Positions 3,136 through 33,509 of a stretch of 64,000 nucleotides of DNA are shown in pieces. Positions within the stretch are counted from its first letter, which is position 1. Each line of letters begins with the position of its first letter. The DNA comes from a virus: IMG/VR virus record IMGVR_UViG_3300045988_113151; one strand, 5' to 3'. The translations under genes were made by a program, and so were the position numbers. Below the pieces are notes generated by a model. That model did no database searches, was not told where the DNA came from, and saw only the letters and a program-made list of their open reading frames with translations.

Positions 3136-3987
3136 TGGGGTTTGGCGATCTTTGTATTCTGTATAAGACGCAACTCTTATACACGTTCTCTTATGAACTG
3201 CTATATGTCACCATATAGAATAGACTATATCATCTCCTTTTACCTTAAGCGGCAGTCAGGAGTTCCCCGTTTCCATTACCATTAGCTTGTAATGTACTCT
3301 CTTTCGAGATAGTCGTTGAACTTTCATTATGAAAATTGTTATAAATTTGTTCTACTTTTTGTAAAAATAAATCTTTTTCAAATTTATTTTTCATTATATT
3401 GCAATACTTACAACAAGAAACACAGTTTTCTATAGTATAATCTTTTTTAGAATTTACTCTATCTATTCCAAATGCTCGTGGACAATTACAGTAATAACAG
3501 TTATTAGATAATAACTGCTTCATTTGTTCATCTGTAAGTTTTATAAGATAGCCTCTAGATTTAGCATTACTTTTAATACTATTTATCTTATCTCTATAAG
3601 ACTTAGTACTAGAAATTTTATATTTATTTTCAGCTGTTTCTTTTTGTCTATCTATAACGCAATTTGAACAAGATACTGGTATATAAGTTCTACTTTTAGA
3701 AAATCTATCAGCTCGTACAACTGTAAATTTTCCGCATCTATTGCATTTACATTTGAAATAACTTCTTTTAATTTGTTTTTCTTTATCGTAAGTTTCATGA
3801 TCTAACTCTATTATAGTTAGACATCCTACGGTAATTCCAATATATTTATCTAACGTTTCTTTTTTCATAATGCTTAGCTTCTGATTGTTTTTACCACTAT
3901 GTGTATATAACGTATGTAGTGGTAAAAATGTTCCAGAAATTAAGGGAATTTTTCGATAAGATTTTCATCTTAAAGCTCCAATTATTT
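3136..3987 (-). mobile_element. putative group I intron carrying an HNH homing endonuclease gene (boundaries approximate)
   Basis: It separates two halves of one ATPase family member and contains a free-standing HNH ORF. Flanking non-coding parts hold stable hairpins (3891-3925, 3161-3182). Confidence 0.5.
3245..3868 (-). CDS. HNH homing endonuclease
   Basis: CYYCNCPRAFGIDRVNSKKDYTIENCVSCCKYCNIMKN is a beta-beta-alpha-Me/HNH motif. There is an N-terminal Cys-rich zinc-finger-like region. Confidence 0.75.
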   Translation of the reverse strand: MKKETLDKYIGITVGCLTIIELDHETYDKEKQIKRSYFKCKCNRCGKFTVVRADRFSKSRTYIPVSCSNCVIDRQKETAENKYKISSTKSYRDKINSIKSNAKSRGYLIKLTDEQMKQLLSNNCYYCNCPRAFGIDRVNSKKDYTIENCVSCCKYCNIMKNKFEKDLFLQKVEQIYNNFHNESSTTISKESTLQANGNGNGELLTAA

Positions 3988-11655: not shown

Positions 11656-13705
11656 TTTGATAAAATTTTTATTTAATTGCAGAACCCATCGTTCCTAAGT
11701 AACACACTAGCAGTTCTCTTAATTCAGTATAATTAATAGGCGTCTTATATCCTATCGCTTTTAAAAAGCTTAGAAATAATTATAGTAAATCTCTAATTCA
11801 ATAGATACTATACATATTACCATTATAAAAAATCTGATACAGTATGATAAAACTCGACATTTAATTCTTATTTACCTTCACTGATACTATTCTGATAACT
11901 TCTGCAATTAAGGTTGTTTGAAATTATTTGTTAATTCTCTGATATTTATTATCGTAGTTATATTCTAGAGCTCTTGGTAGAGGTGCATACAACAGGGACT
12001 CTAATGGTAAGAGATATATACCCCGTAAGATAATTGGTTTAGCTGATTATTTAAAGAGCCTAACAGTAAATACCTAAAAACGTGCTCTACTCATTTTTAT
12101 CCATTCGTCAGTTGAGTGCTGGGTTTCTGATACTGTATATTATATCTACCGAGACAGGGTAGACCTTTTGTCGACATCAGCGCTGCCGGTTTTGTTATGA
12201 GCTGTTTATGTTTCAAAACACCCACTCTATAGCCTTGTATTACTCACAGGCTGCGTGTACTTACGACTTTGTTCTTATCCTGCACATAATTCTAGGATTT
12301 CCACCTATCATCCCTTAATGGAGGGAATCAGTGTCACTTTACATATATTGTTGCGCAATATACTTTAAGTGGTTCTAGTGTTAGCAATTATATTGTACAG
12401 TCGAGGGTGGCTCGATATAGCTTTTAACTATACACTATACTACCATTGGACTTCCTCATTGCTTTAGTTGAACATGTTAATAATCTCACAAAAAGAAACC
12501 CTTACATATTAGACTTACTATCTACATTTAGTGTCAGTAAAGTGTAGCTGCTAAAATGGGGAATGCACAGATTATACTCCGATCTGCTTCGTCCTCTAGG
12601 TTAAAATATTTCACGACTTTCCTTACTGGTTGTAAGGCTCAATGTTTTTAAATATACAACGTTATCTCAATGTTGCCAACTCGAATTTGATCAGGGAGTT
12701 ATTTCTCCACTAGCTTTAGATTTTCTGTTTATACTAATTACTTCTAATCTATGATATAGAGTTTTCTGGCTCTTCATCCCATATCTACTTTATTTCCTAG
12801 TGCAAAGCACTTTAGGTTTATACTCATCTAAGTAGCAACTGAGTTTAATTATAATATTACTTAGTCCACACAATCCCATTAAACTGAGAATTATTTCTTG
12901 CAAAATACTTTAATTATACTTCCGATTAGTTATTAAATATAACATTACATATAGGCTTTATACCTAATCCAGTTAATCTATATTATATCCATCTTACTTA
13001 CAACGTAAGTTCTATATAATGATCATAGCTACTCAGCCAAAAGGCATGTAATTTACTACTCACTTATCATATAATTAAATAGTGCTATAATATTTATAAT
13101 TCTACCTTCATACATACTGCTTTAAACATTCTTTCTTTAATGCACACTTCCAATTTAAGCTTTCCAAAGGCACGTGTCAGTATGGAACACTATAGTAGTA
13201 TTTTTAGTAACTTTATAGCTACAAGGAAGATTTGGAGTCTACCTAGAATGCTTAACGATTCTATAAATACATATCTACTAAAGTTTGGAGCTTTAGTACT
13301 TTCTTTATCCTCGCACTTTGCGAGTTTGCGACTCGTGTAAGGTAACATTCCCTTTTGATATTCAGTTTGATAACTGGTATTCGAATGTATTAACGATACC
13401 TGGCATTGTTTAACTTCATAAATCTGCTGATTTAATCGTTGCGTCTTTAGTCACCAATCGGTTCTCACTGAGGATGTGCCACGCTCTTCCTCTTTCTCGT
13501 CATTTCTTCAGTCTTAAACAGTAAATTCGACATGATCAAGTTATTATACCTTCGTTCACTCAATAATAGTGGTAGCTATTATTCCAGCCTCTAGTATTAT
13601 GTACTGTTAATGCTTACTTTACTCAATTTCAGCATTCCTCTTCCTATTTGAATAGGAGCGTCTAGGCGAAGCAATTACGTTGCTAACGAATGCAGTTTAT
13701 AGCTC
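11656..13705. other. 2 kb ORF-free segment A: candidate structured non-coding RNA or long UTR
   Basis: The only track ORF is 66 codons (13140..13340, plus strand). TAA, TGA and TAG occur in every frame on both strands. G+C is higher than in flanking genes, and there are many local hairpins. Confidence 0.6.
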
Positions 13706-18834: not shown

Positions 18835-18908
18835 TTCACGGAGCAGGATTCGAACCTGCACTCATTTCCCATATCCGTTCTGTGTCTAACCAATTGCACC
18901 ATCCGTGA
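18835..18908 (-). pseudogene. tRNA-like element with a non-folding anticodon arm
   Basis: Perfect 7-bp acceptor TCACGGA/TCCGTGA, D-arm-like GTGCAATTGGTTAGACAC and canonical T arm GCAGG-TTCGAAT-CCTGC. The 17 nt at the anticodon-arm position (GAACGGATATGGGAAAT) cannot pair. Confidence 0.45.
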
Positions 18909-19764
18909 CCTGCTTTTTACGACATTAGCTTAGCCGTTGACTTATCGTATTACGCTGCAATACGAGTATAGTCTGTTACAAAAGATTTGTCATTTCTGAC
19001 GTCTATTGACCTATTCATTTTCATCCTCGCTGTCAAATCCATAATACCCCATTAGTAGGATTTTCACCTACTTTGAAGCTTTGCGACATTTAGTCTAGGA
19101 GTGGTTTATACCCTTGCCAAGAGGAATCGAACCTCTATGCTTCTGACCGTGGAGTATGAGGGAGTCGAACCCTCGTCCAAACGATTCATCCAATGACCTA
19201 ACAGTCAATATAGTAGTATATAGTTAAATCAATAACTATATACTTAAATATGAATAAACTGTAGGTAAGTATAATAAAAATAATAATCGGAAATATACTT
19301 TAAATACAGAGGCAGATAACTTACTATATGTTTAAAGATTTACTTCTATATCTAAGAGTAGCATCAACTATTACTTTATTATAGGCTCTAGGCTCGCTTA
19401 CTCTACAGTTTTAAATAGGCTTTGATTGCATGTATAGTATAGCAAGTGCTCATGTAAAACAGACTCGATTGAACTATAGGCATAAAGCTCTCTATACATA
19501 TACAATTTGATTTTGTGTACTGTTTATCGTCATAAGACTATTCATAGTACAAACTTCGCCAGTTTTATACCCTCGTGGCTTATAGCTCTTGAGTTTAGAA
19601 CGATCTTTAGGCTCATGATCAGTGGCACGTTTTTTACCCAGCAAAATGGGTCAAGCCTCTATTGCTTGTTGTCAATTCAACTGTGTACAACATCCTGCAT
19701 CAAAAGACGACTTATCATGTTCTATGTACAGATTTGTCATAAAGACTTCTTCTTGGGTTGTCGA
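18909..19764. other. ORF-free segment B
   Basis: No credible ORF on the transcribed strand. It contains tRNA T-arm-like hairpins and repeated 10-11-mers. Confidence 0.5.
19120..19174 (-). ncRNA. two adjacent T-arm-like hairpins (tRNA remnants?)
   Basis: Minus sense: GAGGG-TTCGACT-CCCTC (19158-19174) and AGAGG-TTCGATT-CCTCT (19120-19136). No matching acceptor or anticodon arms were found. Confidence 0.3.
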
Positions 19765-20379: not shown

Positions 20380-20643
20380 AGACTTTTAAATTTAAGAGAG
20401 TTATCTGTCTATTCGTACGTCTTATTCAACAGAAGCCCTTTTCCTTCTCCTGACCTATTACTAGGTTGACCGTTGTATAGTCCGTAGTACTCTATCTGTT
20501 AAGATTCCTTTAGGGGTTTGGCTTTATAACTCTCTAGGCTTAACTTCACCATAACTTAATAATTAAGTTAAAAACAAATTATCTGGCATGATAATATTAG
20601 TTGTTATAATAAATATTACTTTATTACTACACGCATGGAGATT

Positions 20644-21419: not shown

Positions 21420-21844
21420 TTACATATAAATTAATAGTTTAAAAGTTAATATTAATGATGGCGTCTCATAGTTGCAGCTATGAGATTGTAATCAGTTTAA
21501 TTGAAAAAGATTTAAAGTTGATACAGTATACTGCAATATACTTACCAGTTCTCCAATAGGATAGCTTTTGTTAATAGAGCGAACTATTTTACATTTTTGA
21601 CTCTCACATATTTAAACACATGCAGAAAAGCTGTCAAACCAATCTTACTGTGTACATGATTTTAACGCCCGCACGATCATAAATACATTTAATCAATAGG
21701 TTATTTATAATTTGCATACGTATGTCTCACTAATTTTAATCAACTATCATAGTATTTACTTACGCCCCACATGTTTGTCATCTTCTGAAGGAGCTATATT
21801 CCTGTTTCTCAACTGTAATATAGCAAAGACAATTTTAAAATAAA
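21420..21844. other. ORF-free segment D
   Basis: No ORFs. It contains copies of the ACATGATTTTAA and GCCCCACATGTTTGTCA blocks shared with segment E, and the hairpin 21464-21485. Confidence 0.5.
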
Positions 21845-23100: not shown

Positions 23101-23407
23101 ACTTTGCTATTTTATTATAAATTATATTCCAATAGTGAATACCTTTTATTGAATCTTTCCAAGAAAAAGTAGTTATTATATAAAATATTACATAATTACT
23201 TCTTTTTTTATATAGGTTGAGACCTCTATAATTATAATTACGAAAACTCATATTATAATGTATTACTTCGGAAACAAATTCACTCAAACAATTAAAATGA
23301 ATTAAAGCGTGTAACAAGTTATATGACATGTTTGTCATAATGTGATGTCTCATATCCTGCTTAATTCGTTTTAAATCTTTGTCTGTATAATCTACAATAT
23401 TTTCCAT
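23075..23407 (-). CDS. hypothetical protein with FSW...G..YW motif, ends at TAG
   Basis: TTFSWKDSIKGIHYWNIIYNKI parallels GGFSWSSTKEGFEYWDNILGKI in 18538..18819. The stop is TAG (plus cta 23075-23077). Confidence 0.45.
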   Translation of the reverse strand: MENIVDYTDKDLKRIKQDMRHHIMTNMSYNLLHALIHFNCLSEFVSEVIHYNMSFRNYNYRGLNLYKKRSNYVIFYIITTFSWKDSIKGIHYWNIIYNKIAKYEQEIKAK

Positions 23408-23814
23408 AATTACTTTTTAATAAGGAATACTAAGTTTTGATTTGTACAAATAGCAAGATGTGAATACTTTCTAATAAATTTCTTTTTCATATTGATTATG
23501 TTTTAATGGTTAGTAAATTCTAATAAAATGAAGATTGCTACTTTCACAAGCAACAACCTTCTATAAACCAAATTTTAATAAAGAGAATGGCAAATGTAAC
23601 TAACATCTGAGGACTAGGATACGCTAATCCCTATAAATGATGCAATTAAAAATAGCGAAGAGTTACTAACGTAGTACAATATAGTTTGCATCATACATGA
23701 TTTTAAAGTCTGCACTAATGCTAGTTCAAGTGAGCTGTATAAATCAATATACATTTCAGACTAGACATAAGCCCCACATGTTTGTCAAGGATTCTCACCT
23801 TAATAACTTATAGT

Positions 23815-23937
23815 TTAATTACCATTAATAATGTAGAAGATATAACCTACAGCAAATAATGCTATAAGAACATAAATAATTGCAACTCCTACAAATGCAA
23901 TTATTCTTTCAAATAAATCGTCATCGTCTTTTTTCAT
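23815..23937 (-). CDS. small single-TM protein, 40 aa
   Basis: Hand translation MKKDDDDLFERIIAFVGVAIIYVLIALFAVGYIFYIINGN. Confidence 0.35.
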   Translation of the reverse strand: MKKDDDDLFERIIAFVGVAIIYVLIALFAVGYIFYIINGN

Positions 23938-24192
23938 AATTTAATAATTTTATAAATTTGCATTTTACACCTAAAACTTATAAGGGTAATAGGACTCGAA
24001 ATTAATCTATCCTAAAACTTTATTTATTACCTACTAAAAGAAGTAGAACTTATAAGAAACTGGTGTCCTCAATGTCTTGGAAGGTTATTGAGTTTTTTAA
24101 ATATCTGTCTTTCCAGATCGCCAATATTAGTTTATACTCCTAATATTAGAGTTTACTATCTTTAATACCTAGAATAAGATAGCAGATTGTTT

Positions 24193-24232
24193 AAAAGAAT
24201 AGTATAATCTTCCAAAACTATACTATTCTTTT
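24193..24232. terminator. bidirectional terminator-like hairpin
   Basis: 14-bp perfect stem AAAAGAATAGTATA/TATACTATTCTTTT with a 12-nt loop. The symmetric A/T runs give a U-tail on either strand. Confidence 0.5.
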
Positions 24233-24884
24233 GTATTATCAACACTCACTATTACACACAGTAGCTAATTGTGTTTATTTAGTGACTAGATTCATAGTGG
24301 AAATGATTCCTTATGAGAATCCTACTTACTAGCTAGACTCTTGCGCTCGATATTGACGTTGTGGCAATCAACAACAATATTTTTCACAATCGAGGGTCTT
24401 ATTTCTCGGCAACTCCTACTTAATTTAAATTTGAATATATTTATATATCCCAAGTAATCAACAGATATTTGGAGCACTATTTTACATCATTGTTTTCACG
24501 CTGATTGCTCGTTTTTGATCTTTTAATCAATATATACTTGATCAGTATGTATATATCTATGCTTCTTACTTTCTGAGCGAGTTTGCGATTCTCAGATTTC
24601 ATATTTTCTATTACCACGCATTGGCTAATTAGAAGAGCCTTAATTAAATTAAAATAACATAACTTGCACAGTTTGTTTAGTTATGACTAACCAGCCTGTG
24701 ACTAACTTCTGGTTAGTCTTAATTTAATTACTAGTCTTTACAGCGCTAGCTCTCTGTTTAGTTATTATAAAGATAATTAAATTAGAAAAAATTGCTATAA
24801 TGATGACTCAATTGTAGTGATATGCAGAAGCGATGGACACTTTCATGTCCACGCTCTGATTGACGAATAAGCTATATATTAGTA

Positions 24885-25565
24885 TCATTCATCATAGTCA
24901 TCATCTGCATTAATGTTGGATTTCGTGGGTGGAGTGACAGTACCACCCTTACTCTCATCTCCCTTGTCAACTTTTTTCAATACCCAATAAATCCCACGGT
25001 TTAGATTGCTGTCTGTATTCCTCTTGATTACTTCCTCAACTGTGCCACCATTTAATTCGGTGTCCCATTCGTTAGTATCGTCGAATCCTACGACTTCATC
25101 ATTCTCCCCAATTATAGGTACAACCTTAGAATACCCAACAGCGTTAAGTGTACGTAATTCTGTTTGACTGCCATTTTTGTCGTAGTAGTAAAAACTTTCA
25201 ATGTCATATAATTCACTGACTTTCATAGTTTTGTACACTAGAGGTAAAGAAAATTGACAATCTTCTAACTTAACTACTTCACCCTTCTTAGTTGTAAACT
25301 GTTTTTCATCCGATTCCATGCACTTAATAAACCTATCTAGTAGCTTCTTGTATGCCTTAGCAGTTTCGTCCTCTGTTGGAAACAGGCATTTAACTAAGTT
25401 TACGTCTCGAATTGCCGCAGCTTGAGGGTTAAGTACACGCACACCATTAATCATAATGAACGGCTCGCAATTTTTGTCTCCCGTAGTGTAAGAGAATGTA
25501 CATACGTAGTACTCATTTCCATTTTCTCTTACACGTTTTTCTGCTTGAATTAATTTACTTAACAT
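24885..25565 (-). CDS. hypothetical protein with acidic C-terminal tail, first gene of the leftward block
   Basis: ORF track; ends NADDDYDE. Higher G+C than neighbours. An SSB-like role is possible but unsupported beyond the tail. Confidence 0.5.
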   Translation of the reverse strand: MLSKLIQAEKRVRENGNEYYVCTFSYTTGDKNCEPFIMINGVRVLNPQAAAIRDVNLVKCLFPTEDETAKAYKKLLDRFIKCMESDEKQFTTKKGEVVKLEDCQFSLPLVYKTMKVSELYDIESFYYYDKNGSQTELRTLNAVGYSKVVPIIGENDEVVGFDDTNEWDTELNGGTVEEVIKRNTDSNLNRGIYWVLKKVDKGDESKGGTVTPPTKSNINADDDYDE

Positions 25566-33402: not shown

Positions 33403-33474
33403 TCTCCTGTGATGTAAAGGTAACATATTGAGCTCTAACCTCAAAATTGTCCGTTCGAGTCGAGACCAGGAGGA
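33403..33474 (+). tRNA. amber suppressor tRNA, anticodon CUA
   Basis: Acceptor 33403-33409 pairs with 33467-33473 (7 bp, terminal U.G). U8, then D arm ATGT-AAAGGTA-ACAT. Anticodon arm TTGAG-CTCTAAC-CTCAA with CTA at 33435-33437. T arm GTCCG-TTCGAGT-CG(A)GAC with one bulged A. Confidence 0.75.
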
Positions 33475-33509
33475 CTAATAAAAAATAATTTAATGTTACT
33501 ATCACAAAT

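What the first reader, a model, noticed from the sequence alone, without database searches (positions are those of the whole stretch)
23408..24884. A second long ORF-free segment (about 1.5 kb) has an internal bidirectional terminator
Apart from a 40-aa membrane ORF (23815-23937), nothing is codable between 23408 and 24884. The segment contains a 14-bp perfect hairpin flanked by A and T runs (24193-24232). This hairpin would divide the segment into separate transcription units. Further helices occur at 24571-24597 (TCTGAG/CTCAGA, presenting CGAGTTTGCGATT in the loop) and 24687-24716 (CTAACCAG/CTGGTTAG). Together with segments A, B, C (20380-20643), D and the divergent region, roughly 40 percent of the interval 11.6-26.4 kb is non-coding.
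Basis: seen in the sequence. Interest (0 to 1): 0.7.

Follow-up and report, generated by a model that had tools for sequence, protein, structure and literature searches.

The report
Structured-RNA island in crAss-like phage
The 1.5-kb gene-free stretch is a chain of folded non-coding RNAs on the minus strand of a crAss-like gut phage.

Summary
Window 23408-24884 has no credible ORF under the standard code or any stop-codon reassignment, except a real 40-aa membrane-peptide gene. All three helices exist.

The interpretation as a bidirectional terminator does not hold. All features read on the minus strand, the strand of the flanking genes. The 14-bp hairpin (24193-24232) is the 3' stem-loop of an Rfam RAGATH-14 RNA (24181-24417; 169 bits, threshold 149). 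Its loop is invariant in relatives and its stem covaries, but the flanking A and U runs are not conserved.

A hatchet ribozyme (23695-23807; 89 bits, threshold 51) should cut 11 nt after the stop codon of the 40-aa gene.

The other two helices belong to a roughly 225-nt conserved domain. This domain lies upstream of RAGATH-14 in every homologue I could check (18 of 18). Rfam does not hold it.

Between RAGATH-14 and the small gene lies a pseudoknotted element I call QR (23957-24099). It occurs in at least 120 gut-phage contigs, has strong covariation (98% of cells paired, 0 of 500 shuffles as good) and has no Rfam match.

The window is related to Suoliviridae (Crassvirales). The function of these RNAs is unknown, and transcription is inferred, not shown.

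The parts
24829..24855 (-). G+C-rich bulged hairpin (AGCGUGGACA-UGAAAG-UGUCCAUCGCU) about 30 nt after the stop of the 226-aa gene. It may be a 3' end or stability hairpin of that gene. It is present only in close relatives.
   Evidence: Read directly from the sequence. Conserved in L001, L034, L056 and L069. Not called by the terminator scan.
24787..24814 (-). Junction block P1 (CAAUUGAGUCAUCAUUAUAGCAAUUUU). A short sequence kept in about 32 of 37 related phages just after the 226/229-aa gene. Role unknown; it could be a promoter or a recombination junction.
24755..24786 (-). Junction block P2, 5' part (UAAUUUAAUUAUCUUUAUAAUAACUAAACAG). It is promoter-like. Relatives carry TAGATTTG here, which matches the Bacteroides -7 consensus TAnnTTTG as I recall it. 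The block sits in front of different RNA modules in different phages.
   Evidence: In L006, L007, L017 and L021 the block directly abuts the QR element. The promoter role is inference only.
24730..24750 (-). Hairpin GCUAG-CGCUGUAAAGA-CUAGU at the 5' end of the long RNA module. Its loop ends in AAGAC.
   Evidence: Relatives show CUAG/CUAG changing to CCAG/CUGG, with wobble intermediates.
24685..24718 (-).
   Evidence: I6. Diverged homologues have a different stem at the same place (L005 CGAGUAU/AUACUCG; group 2 GCAUCA/UGAUGC), next to a conserved CAGAA.
24418..24641 (-). U-domain: a conserved 5' extension of RAGATH-14 that is not in Rfam. It has an almost invariant ~85-nt core (AAGGCUCUUCUAAUUAGCC...GUGGUAAUAGAAAAUAUGAAAUCUGAGAAUCGCAAACUCGCUCAGAAAGUAAGAAG).
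   Evidence: Found in about 30 viral contigs, always 105-225 nt upstream of the RAGATH-14 start. 18 of 18 regex-defined RAGATH-14 copies have it. Covariation is shown. The only Rfam result in this span was one sub-threshold chance hit (plasmodium_snoR28, E = 2.8).
24181..24417 (-). RAGATH-14 RNA (Rfam RF03145), full length.
   Evidence: 169.2 bits against a gathering score of 149.1, model positions 1-190, E = 4e-33.
24193..24232 (-). 3' stem-loop of RAGATH-14 (model positions 141-176).
   Evidence: alignment. In one search the stem covaries, the loop UUUGGAAG is invariant, and the flanking U run is not conserved.
24103..24182 (-). 3' extension of the RNA: three hairpins. They are CUAUCUU-AUUCUAGGUAUUA-AAGAUAG (24156-24182), ACUCU-AAUAUUA-GGAGU (24136-24152) and AUCUG-GAAAGA-CAGAU (24103-24118).
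   Evidence: Compensatory variants in relatives: CCUCAUCUU/AAGAUGAGG, ACUCUU/AAGAGU and GCCUG/CAGGC.
23957..24099 (-). QR element, a pseudoknotted RNA motif that is not in Rfam.
- 5' tract UAAAAAACUCAAUAAC.
- Helix P-alpha: UCC 24079-24081 with GGA 24066-24068.
- Pseudoknot P-beta: CAUU 24071-24074 with AAUG 23961-23964.
- Helix P-gamma: CACC 24062-24065 with GGUG 23968-23971.
- U-rich internal loop AGUUU/UUUUA.
- Helix P-delta: CUUAUA 24051-24056 with UAUAAG 23977-23982, closing a variable 67-nt insert.
   Evidence: At least 120 viral contigs. 105 distinct core sequences give 98.0% paired cells, 8 pairs with double changes and 0 of 500 shuffles as good. The covariance model hit scores 73.9 bits and is the only copy in the window. 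No Rfam match in the window or for a minimal copy.
23815..23937 (-). Gene for a 40-aa peptide with an acidic N-terminus and one hydrophobic helix (MKKDDDDLFERIIAFVGVAIIYVLIALFAVGYIFYIINGN). It starts 22 nt after QR.
   Evidence: third-position bias of substitutions; frame kept.
23695..23807 (-). Hatchet self-cleaving ribozyme (Rfam RF02678). The predicted cut is between 23804 and 23803, which is 11 nt after the stop codon of the 40-aa gene.
   Evidence: 89.0 bits against a gathering score of 51, model positions 1-133. The conserved blocks CAA, UGGG(GC), GCAG and AAA are intact (alignment compared with PMC6561176). The cleavage position follows PMC6561176: 5' of the first P1 nucleotide.
23530..23561 (-). 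14-bp hairpin GAAGGUUGUUGCUU-GUGA-AAGUAGCAAUCUUC followed by AUUUUAUU. It is the best terminator-like site of the segment, on the minus strand.
23408..23694 (-). Spacer after the hatchet ribozyme. It is conserved only in close relatives, and its folding is not better than chance (z = -1.6). It contains a 26-codon ORF (23490-23410) that ends 2 nt before the 110-aa gene.

Best explanation
The segment is part of a non-coding RNA island in the left-arm block of small minus-strand genes of a crAss-like phage related to Suoliviridae (Crassvirales). Read 5' to 3' on the minus strand it holds the following.

1. A structured RNA of about 700-800 nt (roughly 24750 to 24100). Its core is the catalogued RAGATH-14 motif.
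2. A pseudoknotted element, QR, that sits just in front of the next expressed unit.
3. A 40-aa membrane-peptide gene.
4. A hatchet ribozyme that cuts the transcript 11 nt after that gene's stop codon. The cut leaves a 2',3'-cyclic phosphate on the mini-mRNA and a 5'-OH on the downstream RNA.
5. A terminator-like hairpin at 23561-23530.

Shown here: family membership, strand, conservation, covariation, and the mosaic presence or absence of the modules among relatives.

Inferred, not shown: that the segment is transcribed leftward with the flanking genes, that the hatchet copy cleaves, and that the RNAs act as stable, abundant phage RNAs. I expect them to be protein-binding scaffolds or decoys made early in infection. 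This rests on analogy with the highly expressed long intergenic RNAs of the crAss-like phage phi14:2. The biochemical function of RAGATH-14 and of QR is unknown.
For: - Rfam hits above the gathering score, all on the minus strand: RAGATH-14 169.2/149.1 and hatchet 89.0/51.
- No ORF under any stop-codon reassignment.
- Sense-strand folding z = -7.5.
- U-domain: found in about 30 contigs at a fixed position upstream of RAGATH-14 and upstream of 18 of 18 RAGATH-14 copies. The divergent copy L115 has GCUC/GAGC changed to GUUC/GAAC.
- RAGATH-14 3' hairpin: stem covaries, loop is invariant, U run is not conserved, and a conserved hairpin follows.
- QR: 98.0% of cells paired against 86.9% in shuffles (0 of 500) and 21-46% when partners are slid. 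There are 8 pairs and 201 cells with double changes, and the pseudoknot is 100% paired with 23 double compensations.
- G-U pairs occur on the minus-strand reading. They would be A-C mismatches on the other strand.
- Synteny: every relative has a 0.56-1.65-kb gap after the 229-aa gene, with mosaic content.
- Other crAss-like phages carry U-domain+RAGATH-14, then RAGATH-6, RAGATH-7, RAGATH-7-assoc, two hatchets, a tRNA, RAGATH-9 and a tmRNA-like RNA.
- The 750-nt module is 87-89% identical in phages whose flanking gene is only about 69% identical.
- The 40-aa gene shows a coding pattern of substitutions.
- In phi14:2, long intergenic regions are transcribed more strongly than most genes from the earliest time point, and their function is unknown (10.1101/2020.03.07.982082).
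Against: - There are no expression data for this phage. The promoter, transcript ends and hatchet cleavage are not demonstrated.
- No convincing promoter consensus was found. The sigma-70-type scan was at chance level. TAnnTTTG is not enriched upstream of QR. The TATAATAACTA motif is not enriched in the window.
- Much of the U-domain is invariant, so its long-range helices (GCUC/GAGC, UUCUA/UAGAA, GCAAY/GUUGC) rest on one divergent sequence or on none.
- The -1 nucleotide at the predicted hatchet site is A. The studied constructs had C, and activity with A was not tested.
- The antisense strand also folds well (z = -5.9), so folding energy alone does not identify the strand.
- Close relatives share ancestry, so some covariation counts are not independent events.
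Confidence: 0.8

Rival explanations
1. One reading: the 24193-24232 hairpin, flanked by A and T runs, is a bidirectional intrinsic terminator. It would divide the ORF-free segment into separate transcription units whose RNAs end at it.
For: The stem is 14 bp and perfect, with AAAA on one side and TTTT on the other. It is among the strongest local inverted repeats in the window. In this phage it could incidentally pause or stop RNA polymerase.
Against: - It is part of the RAGATH-14 model, positions 141-176.
- The loop UUUGGAAG is invariant, and the A and U runs are absent from other homologues, which read GUAAUA...UAUUAC-UAAAUAAC.
- Conserved, covarying RNA continues immediately downstream.
- The stem has only 2 G-C pairs, and the terminator scan did not call it.
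- All neighbouring genes and RNAs are on the minus strand, so a plus-strand terminator has no obvious purpose here.
Confidence: 0.08
2. The segment works mainly as DNA, not as RNA. It would be a recombination hot spot, or a replication or packaging signal. The short widely conserved blocks (P1, P2, Q, R) would be recombination junctions or protein-binding sites that shuffle cassettes between phages, and the RNA structures would be secondary.
For: - The content of the gap is mosaic among relatives, with short blocks shared by up to 32 of 37 loci and duplicated at insertion borders.
- The RNA module is more conserved than the flanking gene, which suggests horizontal exchange.
- The segment is A+T-rich and ORF-free.
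Against: - Compensatory base changes, G-U pairs, a pseudoknot, and conserved loops with variable stems are signatures of selection on a folded single strand.
- The Rfam models match one strand only.
- The Q and R blocks pair with each other.
- Cassette exchange can coexist with RNA function. This explanation adds to the main one and does not replace it.
Confidence: 0.1
3. The segment is decayed or unconventionally decoded protein-coding sequence: a pseudogene, a gene read with a reassigned stop codon, or a gene interrupted by an intron.
For: The window carries a CTA-anticodon suppressor tRNA. Relatives have small genes in the same gap, for example L006 6909-7142 and 7425-7700. Crassvirales are known for introns and recoding (PMC10136315).
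Against: - No frame longer than 79 aa opens with TAG or TGA read through.
- The invariant core is conserved at all codon positions.
- Its helix-preserving substitutions turn the only ATG frame (MKSENRKLAQ...) into MKSRNRKLT-stop in five relatives.
- No group I or group II intron model matched.
Confidence: 0.02

Closest known systems
RAGATH-14 RNA motif (Rfam RF03145). From memory, it is one of the 'RNAs Associated with Genes Associated with Twister and Hammerhead ribozymes' found by comparative genomics in metagenomes.
   Same: Full-length match above the curated threshold, with the same stems and conserved loops. The genomic company is the same: hatchet ribozymes and other RAGATH motifs.
   Different: The Rfam model covers 190 positions. 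Here and in all homologues examined, the conserved RNA extends about 225 nt upstream (U-domain) and about 80 nt downstream. The model's unpaired but conserved 5' tail AGUUGCC can pair with an upstream conserved GCAAY. That pairing shows no covariation. The window copy also has a 44-nt insertion after the first hairpin.
Hatchet self-cleaving ribozyme (Rfam RF02678; PMC4604424, PMC6561176)
   Same: P1-P4 architecture, conserved core nucleotides, and a variable P4 loop. It was found only in metagenomic, phage-like DNA.
   Different: The -1 nucleotide is A, not C. ACGU of loop L2 reads ACUU. Here the ribozyme sits 11 nt after the stop codon of a 40-aa gene, so it would define that mRNA's 3' end. 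The papers I read do not describe this placement, but I did not survey the literature for it.
Long, highly expressed intergenic RNAs of the crAss-like phage phi14:2 (10.1101/2020.03.07.982082)
   Same: Long ORF-free regions among the early genes of a crAss-like phage. In phi14:2 they are transcribed more strongly than most genes and persist through infection. Their function is unknown.
   Different: No sequence relationship was tested or is claimed. phi14:2 infects Cellulophaga. The structures and families of the phi14:2 RNAs were not described in the text I read.
Hairpin-type (H-type) pseudoknot RNAs, such as small pseudoknot riboswitch aptamers and viral exonuclease-resistant RNAs. This comparison for QR is from memory.
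   Same: A hairpin loop pairs with a 3' tail, helices stack next to each other, a U-rich internal loop lies beside an invariant A tract, and peripheral stems are variable.
   Different: No Rfam family matches, even for a 75-nt minimal copy. No ligand, cleavage or nuclease resistance is known. The topology (P-alpha loop pairing with the tail after P-gamma) does not match pistol, twister, HDV-like or hatchet as I recall them.

Membership tests
RAGATH-14 (RF03145) | Covariance-model score at or above Rfam's gathering threshold, over the whole model | tested here: met
   169.2 bits against 149.1, model positions 1-190 of 190, not truncated, minus strand.
RAGATH-14 (RF03145) | The model's stems are formed and its conserved loop and junction nucleotides are present | tested here: met
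   In the alignment only two helices carry non-canonical marks. The loops AAUAAGAC, UCAUAAGG, AUUAGCUAC and UUUUGGAAGA are all present.
RAGATH-14 (RF03145) | Genomic association with self-cleaving ribozymes and other RAGATH motifs | tested here: met
   A hatchet lies 374 nt downstream. RAGATH-9 and a second hatchet lie in the same gene block. Relatives carry RAGATH-6, -7 and -9 and hatchets.
Hatchet ribozyme (RF02678) | Covariance-model score at or above the gathering threshold, full length | tested here: met
   89.0 bits against 51, model positions 1-133 of 133.
Hatchet ribozyme (RF02678) | Highly conserved core blocks (C20-A22, U28-G31, G63-G66 and A73-A75 of PMC6561176) | tested here: met
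   CAA, UGUGGGGC, GUGCAGAC and UUAAAAUCA are all present in the alignment. The blocks are named.
Hatchet ribozyme (RF02678) | Mg2+-dependent self-cleavage 5' of P1 | not testable with these tools
   Needs an in-vitro cleavage assay. The -1 nucleotide is A here.
Intrinsic (rho-independent) terminator, for the 24193-24232 hairpin | G+C-rich stem followed directly by a U tract | tested here: not met
   The stem has only 2 G-C pairs out of 14. The four U's are themselves the last pairs of the stem. The scan did not call it.
Intrinsic (rho-independent) terminator, for the 24193-24232 hairpin | Homologous hairpins keep the U tract, while loop and stem sequence are free to vary | tested here: not met
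   The loop UUUGGAAG is invariant. The U tract is absent in L005, L042, L048, L053, L055, L060, L068 and L115.
Any Rfam 15 family, for the U-domain and for QR | A covariance-model match, even below threshold (E up to 10) | tested here: not met
   Only chance-level microRNA and snoRNA hits in the window and in a minimal QR copy, L167.
Structured RNA in general, for QR | Base pairs maintained by compensatory substitutions beyond shuffled and slid controls | tested here: met
   98.0% paired against 86.9% in shuffles (0 of 500) and 21-46% slid. Covariation score 0.317 against 0.113.

The most novel reading that the evidence does not exclude
RAGATH-14 would be only the core of an ~800-nt phage long non-coding RNA. 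The adjacent QR pseudoknot would be a new class of functional RNA: a conformational switch (its 5' strand CUCAAU competes with the pseudoknot for AUUGAG), a stability or processing element, or a ribozyme. QR would head expression units in Crassvirales and other gut phages. It lies 14-35 nt before the start codons of many unrelated genes, often small membrane peptides, and always upstream of hatchet ribozymes and never downstream (21 against 0 of 120 copies). Together these RNAs would form an RNA-based early programme of the most abundant human gut phages.
Probability: 0.3. Interest if true: 0.8.

Novelty: new variant of a known kind. Interest (0 to 1): 0.6.

Why it matters
Crassvirales are the most abundant phages of the human gut, and their long gene-free regions are left blank in reference annotations. 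The homologous 2.2-kb gap of cr53_1 has no annotated feature.

This analysis shows that one such gap is a dense chain of conserved folded RNAs. It places RAGATH-14 and hatchet, orphan motifs known only from metagenomes, in a crAss-like phage genome and in a fixed gene neighbourhood. That gives a concrete system for testing what they do.

Two results go beyond Rfam 15, the RNA-family catalogue I could search, and I found no description in the papers I searched. First, RAGATH-14 has a constant 5' domain, so experiments on the 190-nt motif alone may have used an incomplete RNA. Second, the QR pseudoknot is widespread and strongly covarying but has no Rfam family.

A hatchet placed 11 nt after a stop codon suggests a simple biological role for this ribozyme class: defining mRNA 3' ends without a terminator.

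Tried and rejected
1. Hidden coding by stop-codon reassignment. Rejected.
2. TATAATAACTA repeats (12921, 23164, 24753, plus 20593) as a phage promoter. The motif is not enriched in the window: 30 matches against 25 expected.
3. Sigma-70-type promoters and canonical terminators. At chance level, apart from the hairpin at 23561-23530.
4. Block R (UAAGUUUUAGGUGUAAAAUGC) as a general promoter. It is unique in the window, and it pairs with block Q. The Bacteroides -7 motif is not enriched upstream of QR.
5. My first model of Q as a simple hairpin, CUCAAU/AUUGAG. It has only one-sided (wobble) support and competes with the covarying P-alpha and P-beta helices. I keep it only as a possible alternative conformer.
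6. QR in cellular genomes. The 46 genome hits are about the number expected by chance for this 18-mer (my estimate is about 69). Only about 12 are true copies, and those I looked at (Bacilli, Clostridiales, Thauera) lie on contigs that look like mis-binned or contaminating phage DNA.
7. PHROGs annotation of ten neighbouring proteins. No family matched.
8. Literature. No paper in the library links crAss-like phages with hatchet or RAGATH-14. The supplement of the paper describing the RAGATH motifs is not held.
9. The spacer after the hatchet (23408-23694). Its folding is not better than chance (z = -1.6).
10. A uORF starting at the AUG inside the QR tail. The frame is not conserved in L001, and the AUG is absent in the ACAC variants.
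Full report
**What the window is.** Megablast of the segment and of 11-27 kb finds only short matches to uncultured crAss-like phages from human faeces: cr53_1, cr6_1, cr4_1 and others. cr53_1 is classified Crassvirales; Suoliviridae; Loutivirinae. The 226-aa protein encoded just upstream (24885-25565, minus strand) has homologues in 34 IMG/VR contigs of about 50-100 kb. The window is therefore a crAss-like phage genome. In 10-26 kb all credible genes lie on the minus strand.

**Checking the observation.** The ORF-free claim stands.
- Stop-to-stop frames in 23408-24884 reach 67 aa at most under code 11. With TAG or TGA read through they reach 79 aa at most. I tested this because the window has a CTA-anticodon suppressor tRNA.
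- The 14-bp perfect hairpin at 24193-24232 and the helix at 24687-24716 are the third- and sixth-ranked local inverted repeats of the whole window.
- The TCTGAG/CTCAGA helix is at 24572-24577 and 24591-24596.
- The sense RNA 24797-23955 folds with z = -7.5. The antisense strand gives z = -5.9, so energy alone does not give the strand.
- The estimate of about 40% non-coding in 11.6-26.4 kb is right: 36-44%.

**Known families.** An Rfam scan at curated thresholds finds eight matches in the window. Six lie on the minus strand of the left gene block. Within the segment they are RAGATH-14 (24181-24417; 169.2 bits, threshold 149.1) and a hatchet ribozyme (23695-23807; 89.0 bits, threshold 51).

- RAGATH-9 at 20394-20547.
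- A second hatchet at 21654-21792.
- A permuted tmRNA-like RNA at 18950-19209.

**Is the hairpin a terminator?** I compared the homologous hairpins of 15 distinct relatives.
- The stem sequence changes with pairing kept, for example AAAAGAAUAGUAUAG, GUAAUAUAAUAUAGUC and AUAACAUUAUUAUUGA.
- The loop UUUGGAAG never changes.
- The U run after the stem exists only in the window's subgroup. Elsewhere the stem ends UAUUAC and is followed by UAAAUAAC.
- Straight after it comes another hairpin with a conserved loop (AUUCUAGRUAU) and a covarying stem (CUAUCUU/AAGAUAG against CCUCAUCUU/AAGAUGAGG).
- The stem has two G-C pairs, and the terminator scan did not call it.

These are the properties of an internal structural element, not of a terminator. 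It might still pause polymerase in this particular phage.

**The part upstream of RAGATH-14.** cr53_1 and several IMG/VR relatives share 24390-24660 at 83-89% identity, although their flanking protein gene is only about 69% identical at the DNA level.

A scan of IMG/VR for 21 nt of this core found 30 contigs. In all that extend far enough, the start of RAGATH-14 (GAGUUGCC) follows 105-225 nt later. Conversely, 18 of 18 distinct RAGATH-14 copies, recognised by an independent regular expression in all loci fetched, have this domain upstream. The one that lacks the exact core (L115) has a diverged version.

Support for individual helices:
- A second hairpin (AAAUAUC/GAUAUAU, conserved loop UGUUGAUUACUUGG) also covaries.
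- RNAalifold proposes long-range helices GCUC/GAGC and UUCUA/UAGAA. L115 changes the first to GUUC/GAAC and one pair of the second from U-A to C-G (sequence printed). Otherwise these helices are invariant and so untested.

The core is not coding. The substitutions that keep the helix turn its only ATG frame into a 9-codon stub in five relatives. Rfam has nothing significant here; the only result in this span was one chance-level snoRNA hit at E = 2.8. I conclude that the catalogued RAGATH-14 is the 3' half of a larger conserved RNA.

**The QR element.** Two short blocks between RAGATH-14 and the 40-aa gene are shared by about 20 relatives. Block Q is at 24100-24050 and block R at 23984-23950. 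They flank an insert that differs completely between phages.

The 3' end of Q pairs with the 5' end of R, and the pairing changes in a compensatory way: CUUAU/AUAAG, CUUUAU/AUAAAG, CUUAAC/GUUAAG, CUCUGU/ACAGAG and CUUACAAAUAGG/CCUAUUUGUAAG.

Of these, 149 copies had R within 260 nt.

A search of all column pairs on fixed-register extracts revealed two further helices. A 3-bp helix (YCC/GGR) covaries as C-G 74/U-A 30. A pseudoknot between its loop (CAUU) and the tail after R (AAUG) changes to UGUU/AACA in 23 sequences.

The formal count on 105 distinct sequences gives:
- 98.0% of cells paired, against 86.9% in shuffles (0 of 500 as good) and 21-46% when partners are slid.
- 8 pairs and 201 cells with changes on both sides.
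- Covariation score 0.317 against 0.113.

My initial hairpin CUCAAU/AUUGAG has only wobble-type support and overlaps these helices. It may be an alternative conformer.

Other properties of QR:
- The insert closed by the outer helix ranges from a bare hairpin loop to 174 nt. Some copies carry a further hairpin inserted in the 5' loop. A variable hairpin precedes the invariant UAAAAAAC.
- Rfam has no match in the window or for a 75-nt minimal copy.
- A covariance model finds one copy in the window (23957-24084, 73.9 bits). It finds one copy in 24 of the 38 loci searched (36 related phage loci plus cr53_1 and one bacterial locus), cr53_1 included.
- In cellular genomes the 18-mer occurs at about the chance rate. 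The few true copies I looked at lie on contigs that look like mis-binned or contaminating phage DNA.

**Context of QR.** In 63 of 115 distinct copies an ATG-initiated ORF begins within 90 nt of the end of the pseudoknot, mostly 14-35 nt after it. The proteins are unrelated to one another, and many are small hydrophobic peptides. One example, MDRDTELGMLSVIITMIVLYLSIWLFN, recurs. In 12 copies the U-domain and RAGATH-14 follow instead. Hatchet signatures occur within 1.5 kb downstream of 21 of 120 copies and upstream of none. QR therefore tends to head a unit.

**The small gene and the hatchet.** The 40-aa ORF starts 22 nt after QR. In four relatives its frame and length are kept, and 14 of 22 substitutions are at third positions. 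I accept it as a gene for a single-helix membrane peptide.

The hatchet model starts 8 nt after its stop codon. Published structures place cleavage immediately 5' of the first P1 nucleotide (PMC6561176). That corresponds to the bond between 23804 and 23803, 11 nt after the stop. The four conserved core blocks are intact. The -1 base is A, whereas the constructs studied had C. After the ribozyme come about 290 nt conserved only in close relatives. Their folding is at chance level (z = -1.6), and they contain a terminator-like hairpin at 23561-23530.

**Mosaic structure.** Every relative has a non-coding gap of 0.56-1.65 kb after the 229-aa gene, but the content differs.
- RAGATH-14 is present in 5 of the 11 relatives scanned.
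- The hatchet at 23695-23807 is present only in close relatives.
- QR is present in about two thirds.
- The short blocks P1 and P2 are duplicated at the borders of insertions.

In another group of crAss-like phages the order is QR, U-domain+RAGATH-14, RAGATH-6, RAGATH-7, RAGATH-7-assoc, two hatchets, a tRNA, then RAGATH-9 and a tmRNA-like RNA. The modules behave as exchangeable cassettes.

**How it probably works.**
- Shown: the folds, the strand, the conservation and the family membership.
- Inferred: the segment is transcribed leftward with its neighbours. The ~800-nt RAGATH-14 RNA accumulates as a stable structured RNA. QR forms the 5' leader of the mini-mRNA for the 40-aa peptide. The hatchet cuts that mRNA free 11 nt after the stop codon, leaving a 2',3'-cyclic phosphate, and gives the downstream RNA a 5'-OH.

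The only experimental precedent I found concerns the crAss-like phage phi14:2. There, long intergenic regions are transcribed above the level of most genes from the earliest time point and persist, and their function is unknown. No promoter could be assigned here.

**Novelty.**
- RAGATH-14 and hatchet are catalogued families, so their presence is a new instance of known kinds.
- The constant 5' and 3' extensions of RAGATH-14 and the QR pseudoknot are absent from Rfam 15. I found no paper in the library that connects these motifs with crAss-like phages.
- The homologous region of the RefSeq genome cr53_1 carries no annotation.

I cannot exclude that the elements are described in papers or supplements I could not search.

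Noticed in passing
window 33403-33475 (+): tRNA with anticodon CTA, reported by ARAGORN as 'tRNA-Pyl'. It is an amber suppressor, which suggests TAG is read through in part of this phage's genes, as is known for some Crassvirales.
   Followed up: partly
window 18835-19239 (-): A permuted tmRNA-like RNA (Rfam tmRNA_permuted, 48.5 bits against a threshold of 47) next to a tRNA-like element (18835-18908). ARAGORN reads a tag peptide VRNDKSFVTDYTRIAA. Relatives such as cr10_1 and cr114_1 annotate the homologous region as SsrA.
   Followed up: no
This hatchet followed by RAGATH-9 about 1.2 kb downstream is conserved in all 11 relatives scanned.
   Followed up: partly
window 23803 to 21793 (-); also L042 2425-2875, L050 1932-2320, L048 5493-5799: Two hatchets on the same strand lie 2 kb apart in the window, and tandem hatchets lie 100-270 nt apart in other crAss-like phages. 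The RNA between two cuts would carry a 5'-OH and a 2',3'-cyclic phosphate. From memory, these are the ends that RtcB-type ligases join, so circular RNAs are conceivable.
   Followed up: no
window 24738, 24720, 24400, 24111, 24078 (-): The pentamer AAGAC occurs 5 times in the 851-nt sense RNA against 0.9 expected. Four of the five lie at the 3' side of hairpin loops: the P2 hairpin, RAGATH-14 P1, the hairpin before QR, and QR P-alpha. The RAGATH-14 terminal loop has GGAAGA. This could be a shared protein-binding or tertiary-contact motif.
   Followed up: partly
It shares a 30-nt repeat (12921-12950) with 23164-23193 and 24753-24782.
   Followed up: no
window 23410-23490 (-): A 26-codon ORF (MKKKFIRKYSHLAICTNQNLVFLIKK) ends 2 nt before the ATG of the 110-aa gene. 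It may be a small upstream gene, or it may be chance.
   Followed up: no
L005-L033, about 10-120 nt after QR (e.g. L016 7940-8060): In many relatives QR is followed by another conserved non-coding stretch and not by a gene. This stretch (UUAUUUCUAUAUUGUAAGGAUACAGCCAUACUAUCCUU...CACUACAGUCUGUGAAGAUAGUAGUG) contains two hairpins. It was not tested against Rfam separately.
   Followed up: no
L206 (Phaeodactylibacter xiamenensis KD52, NZ_JPOS01000081.1), around locus position 3790-3830: An isolate genome of a marine Bacteroidota carries a good Q-like sequence (CAAUAACUUCCCAAGAUGUUGAGAGCACCAGUUUCU). It is flanked by a repeated 27-nt sequence, and the R block was not recognised. It may be a diverged QR in a prophage or repeat element.
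   Followed up: no
L001-L034, 6748-6830: In most relatives the P1 block after the 229-aa gene is followed by a small gene starting ATGGATAAAAGACAAAAGAAC (MDKRQKN...). The window lacks this gene, and P1 abuts P2 directly. This is an example of cassette loss at the junction blocks.
   Followed up: no
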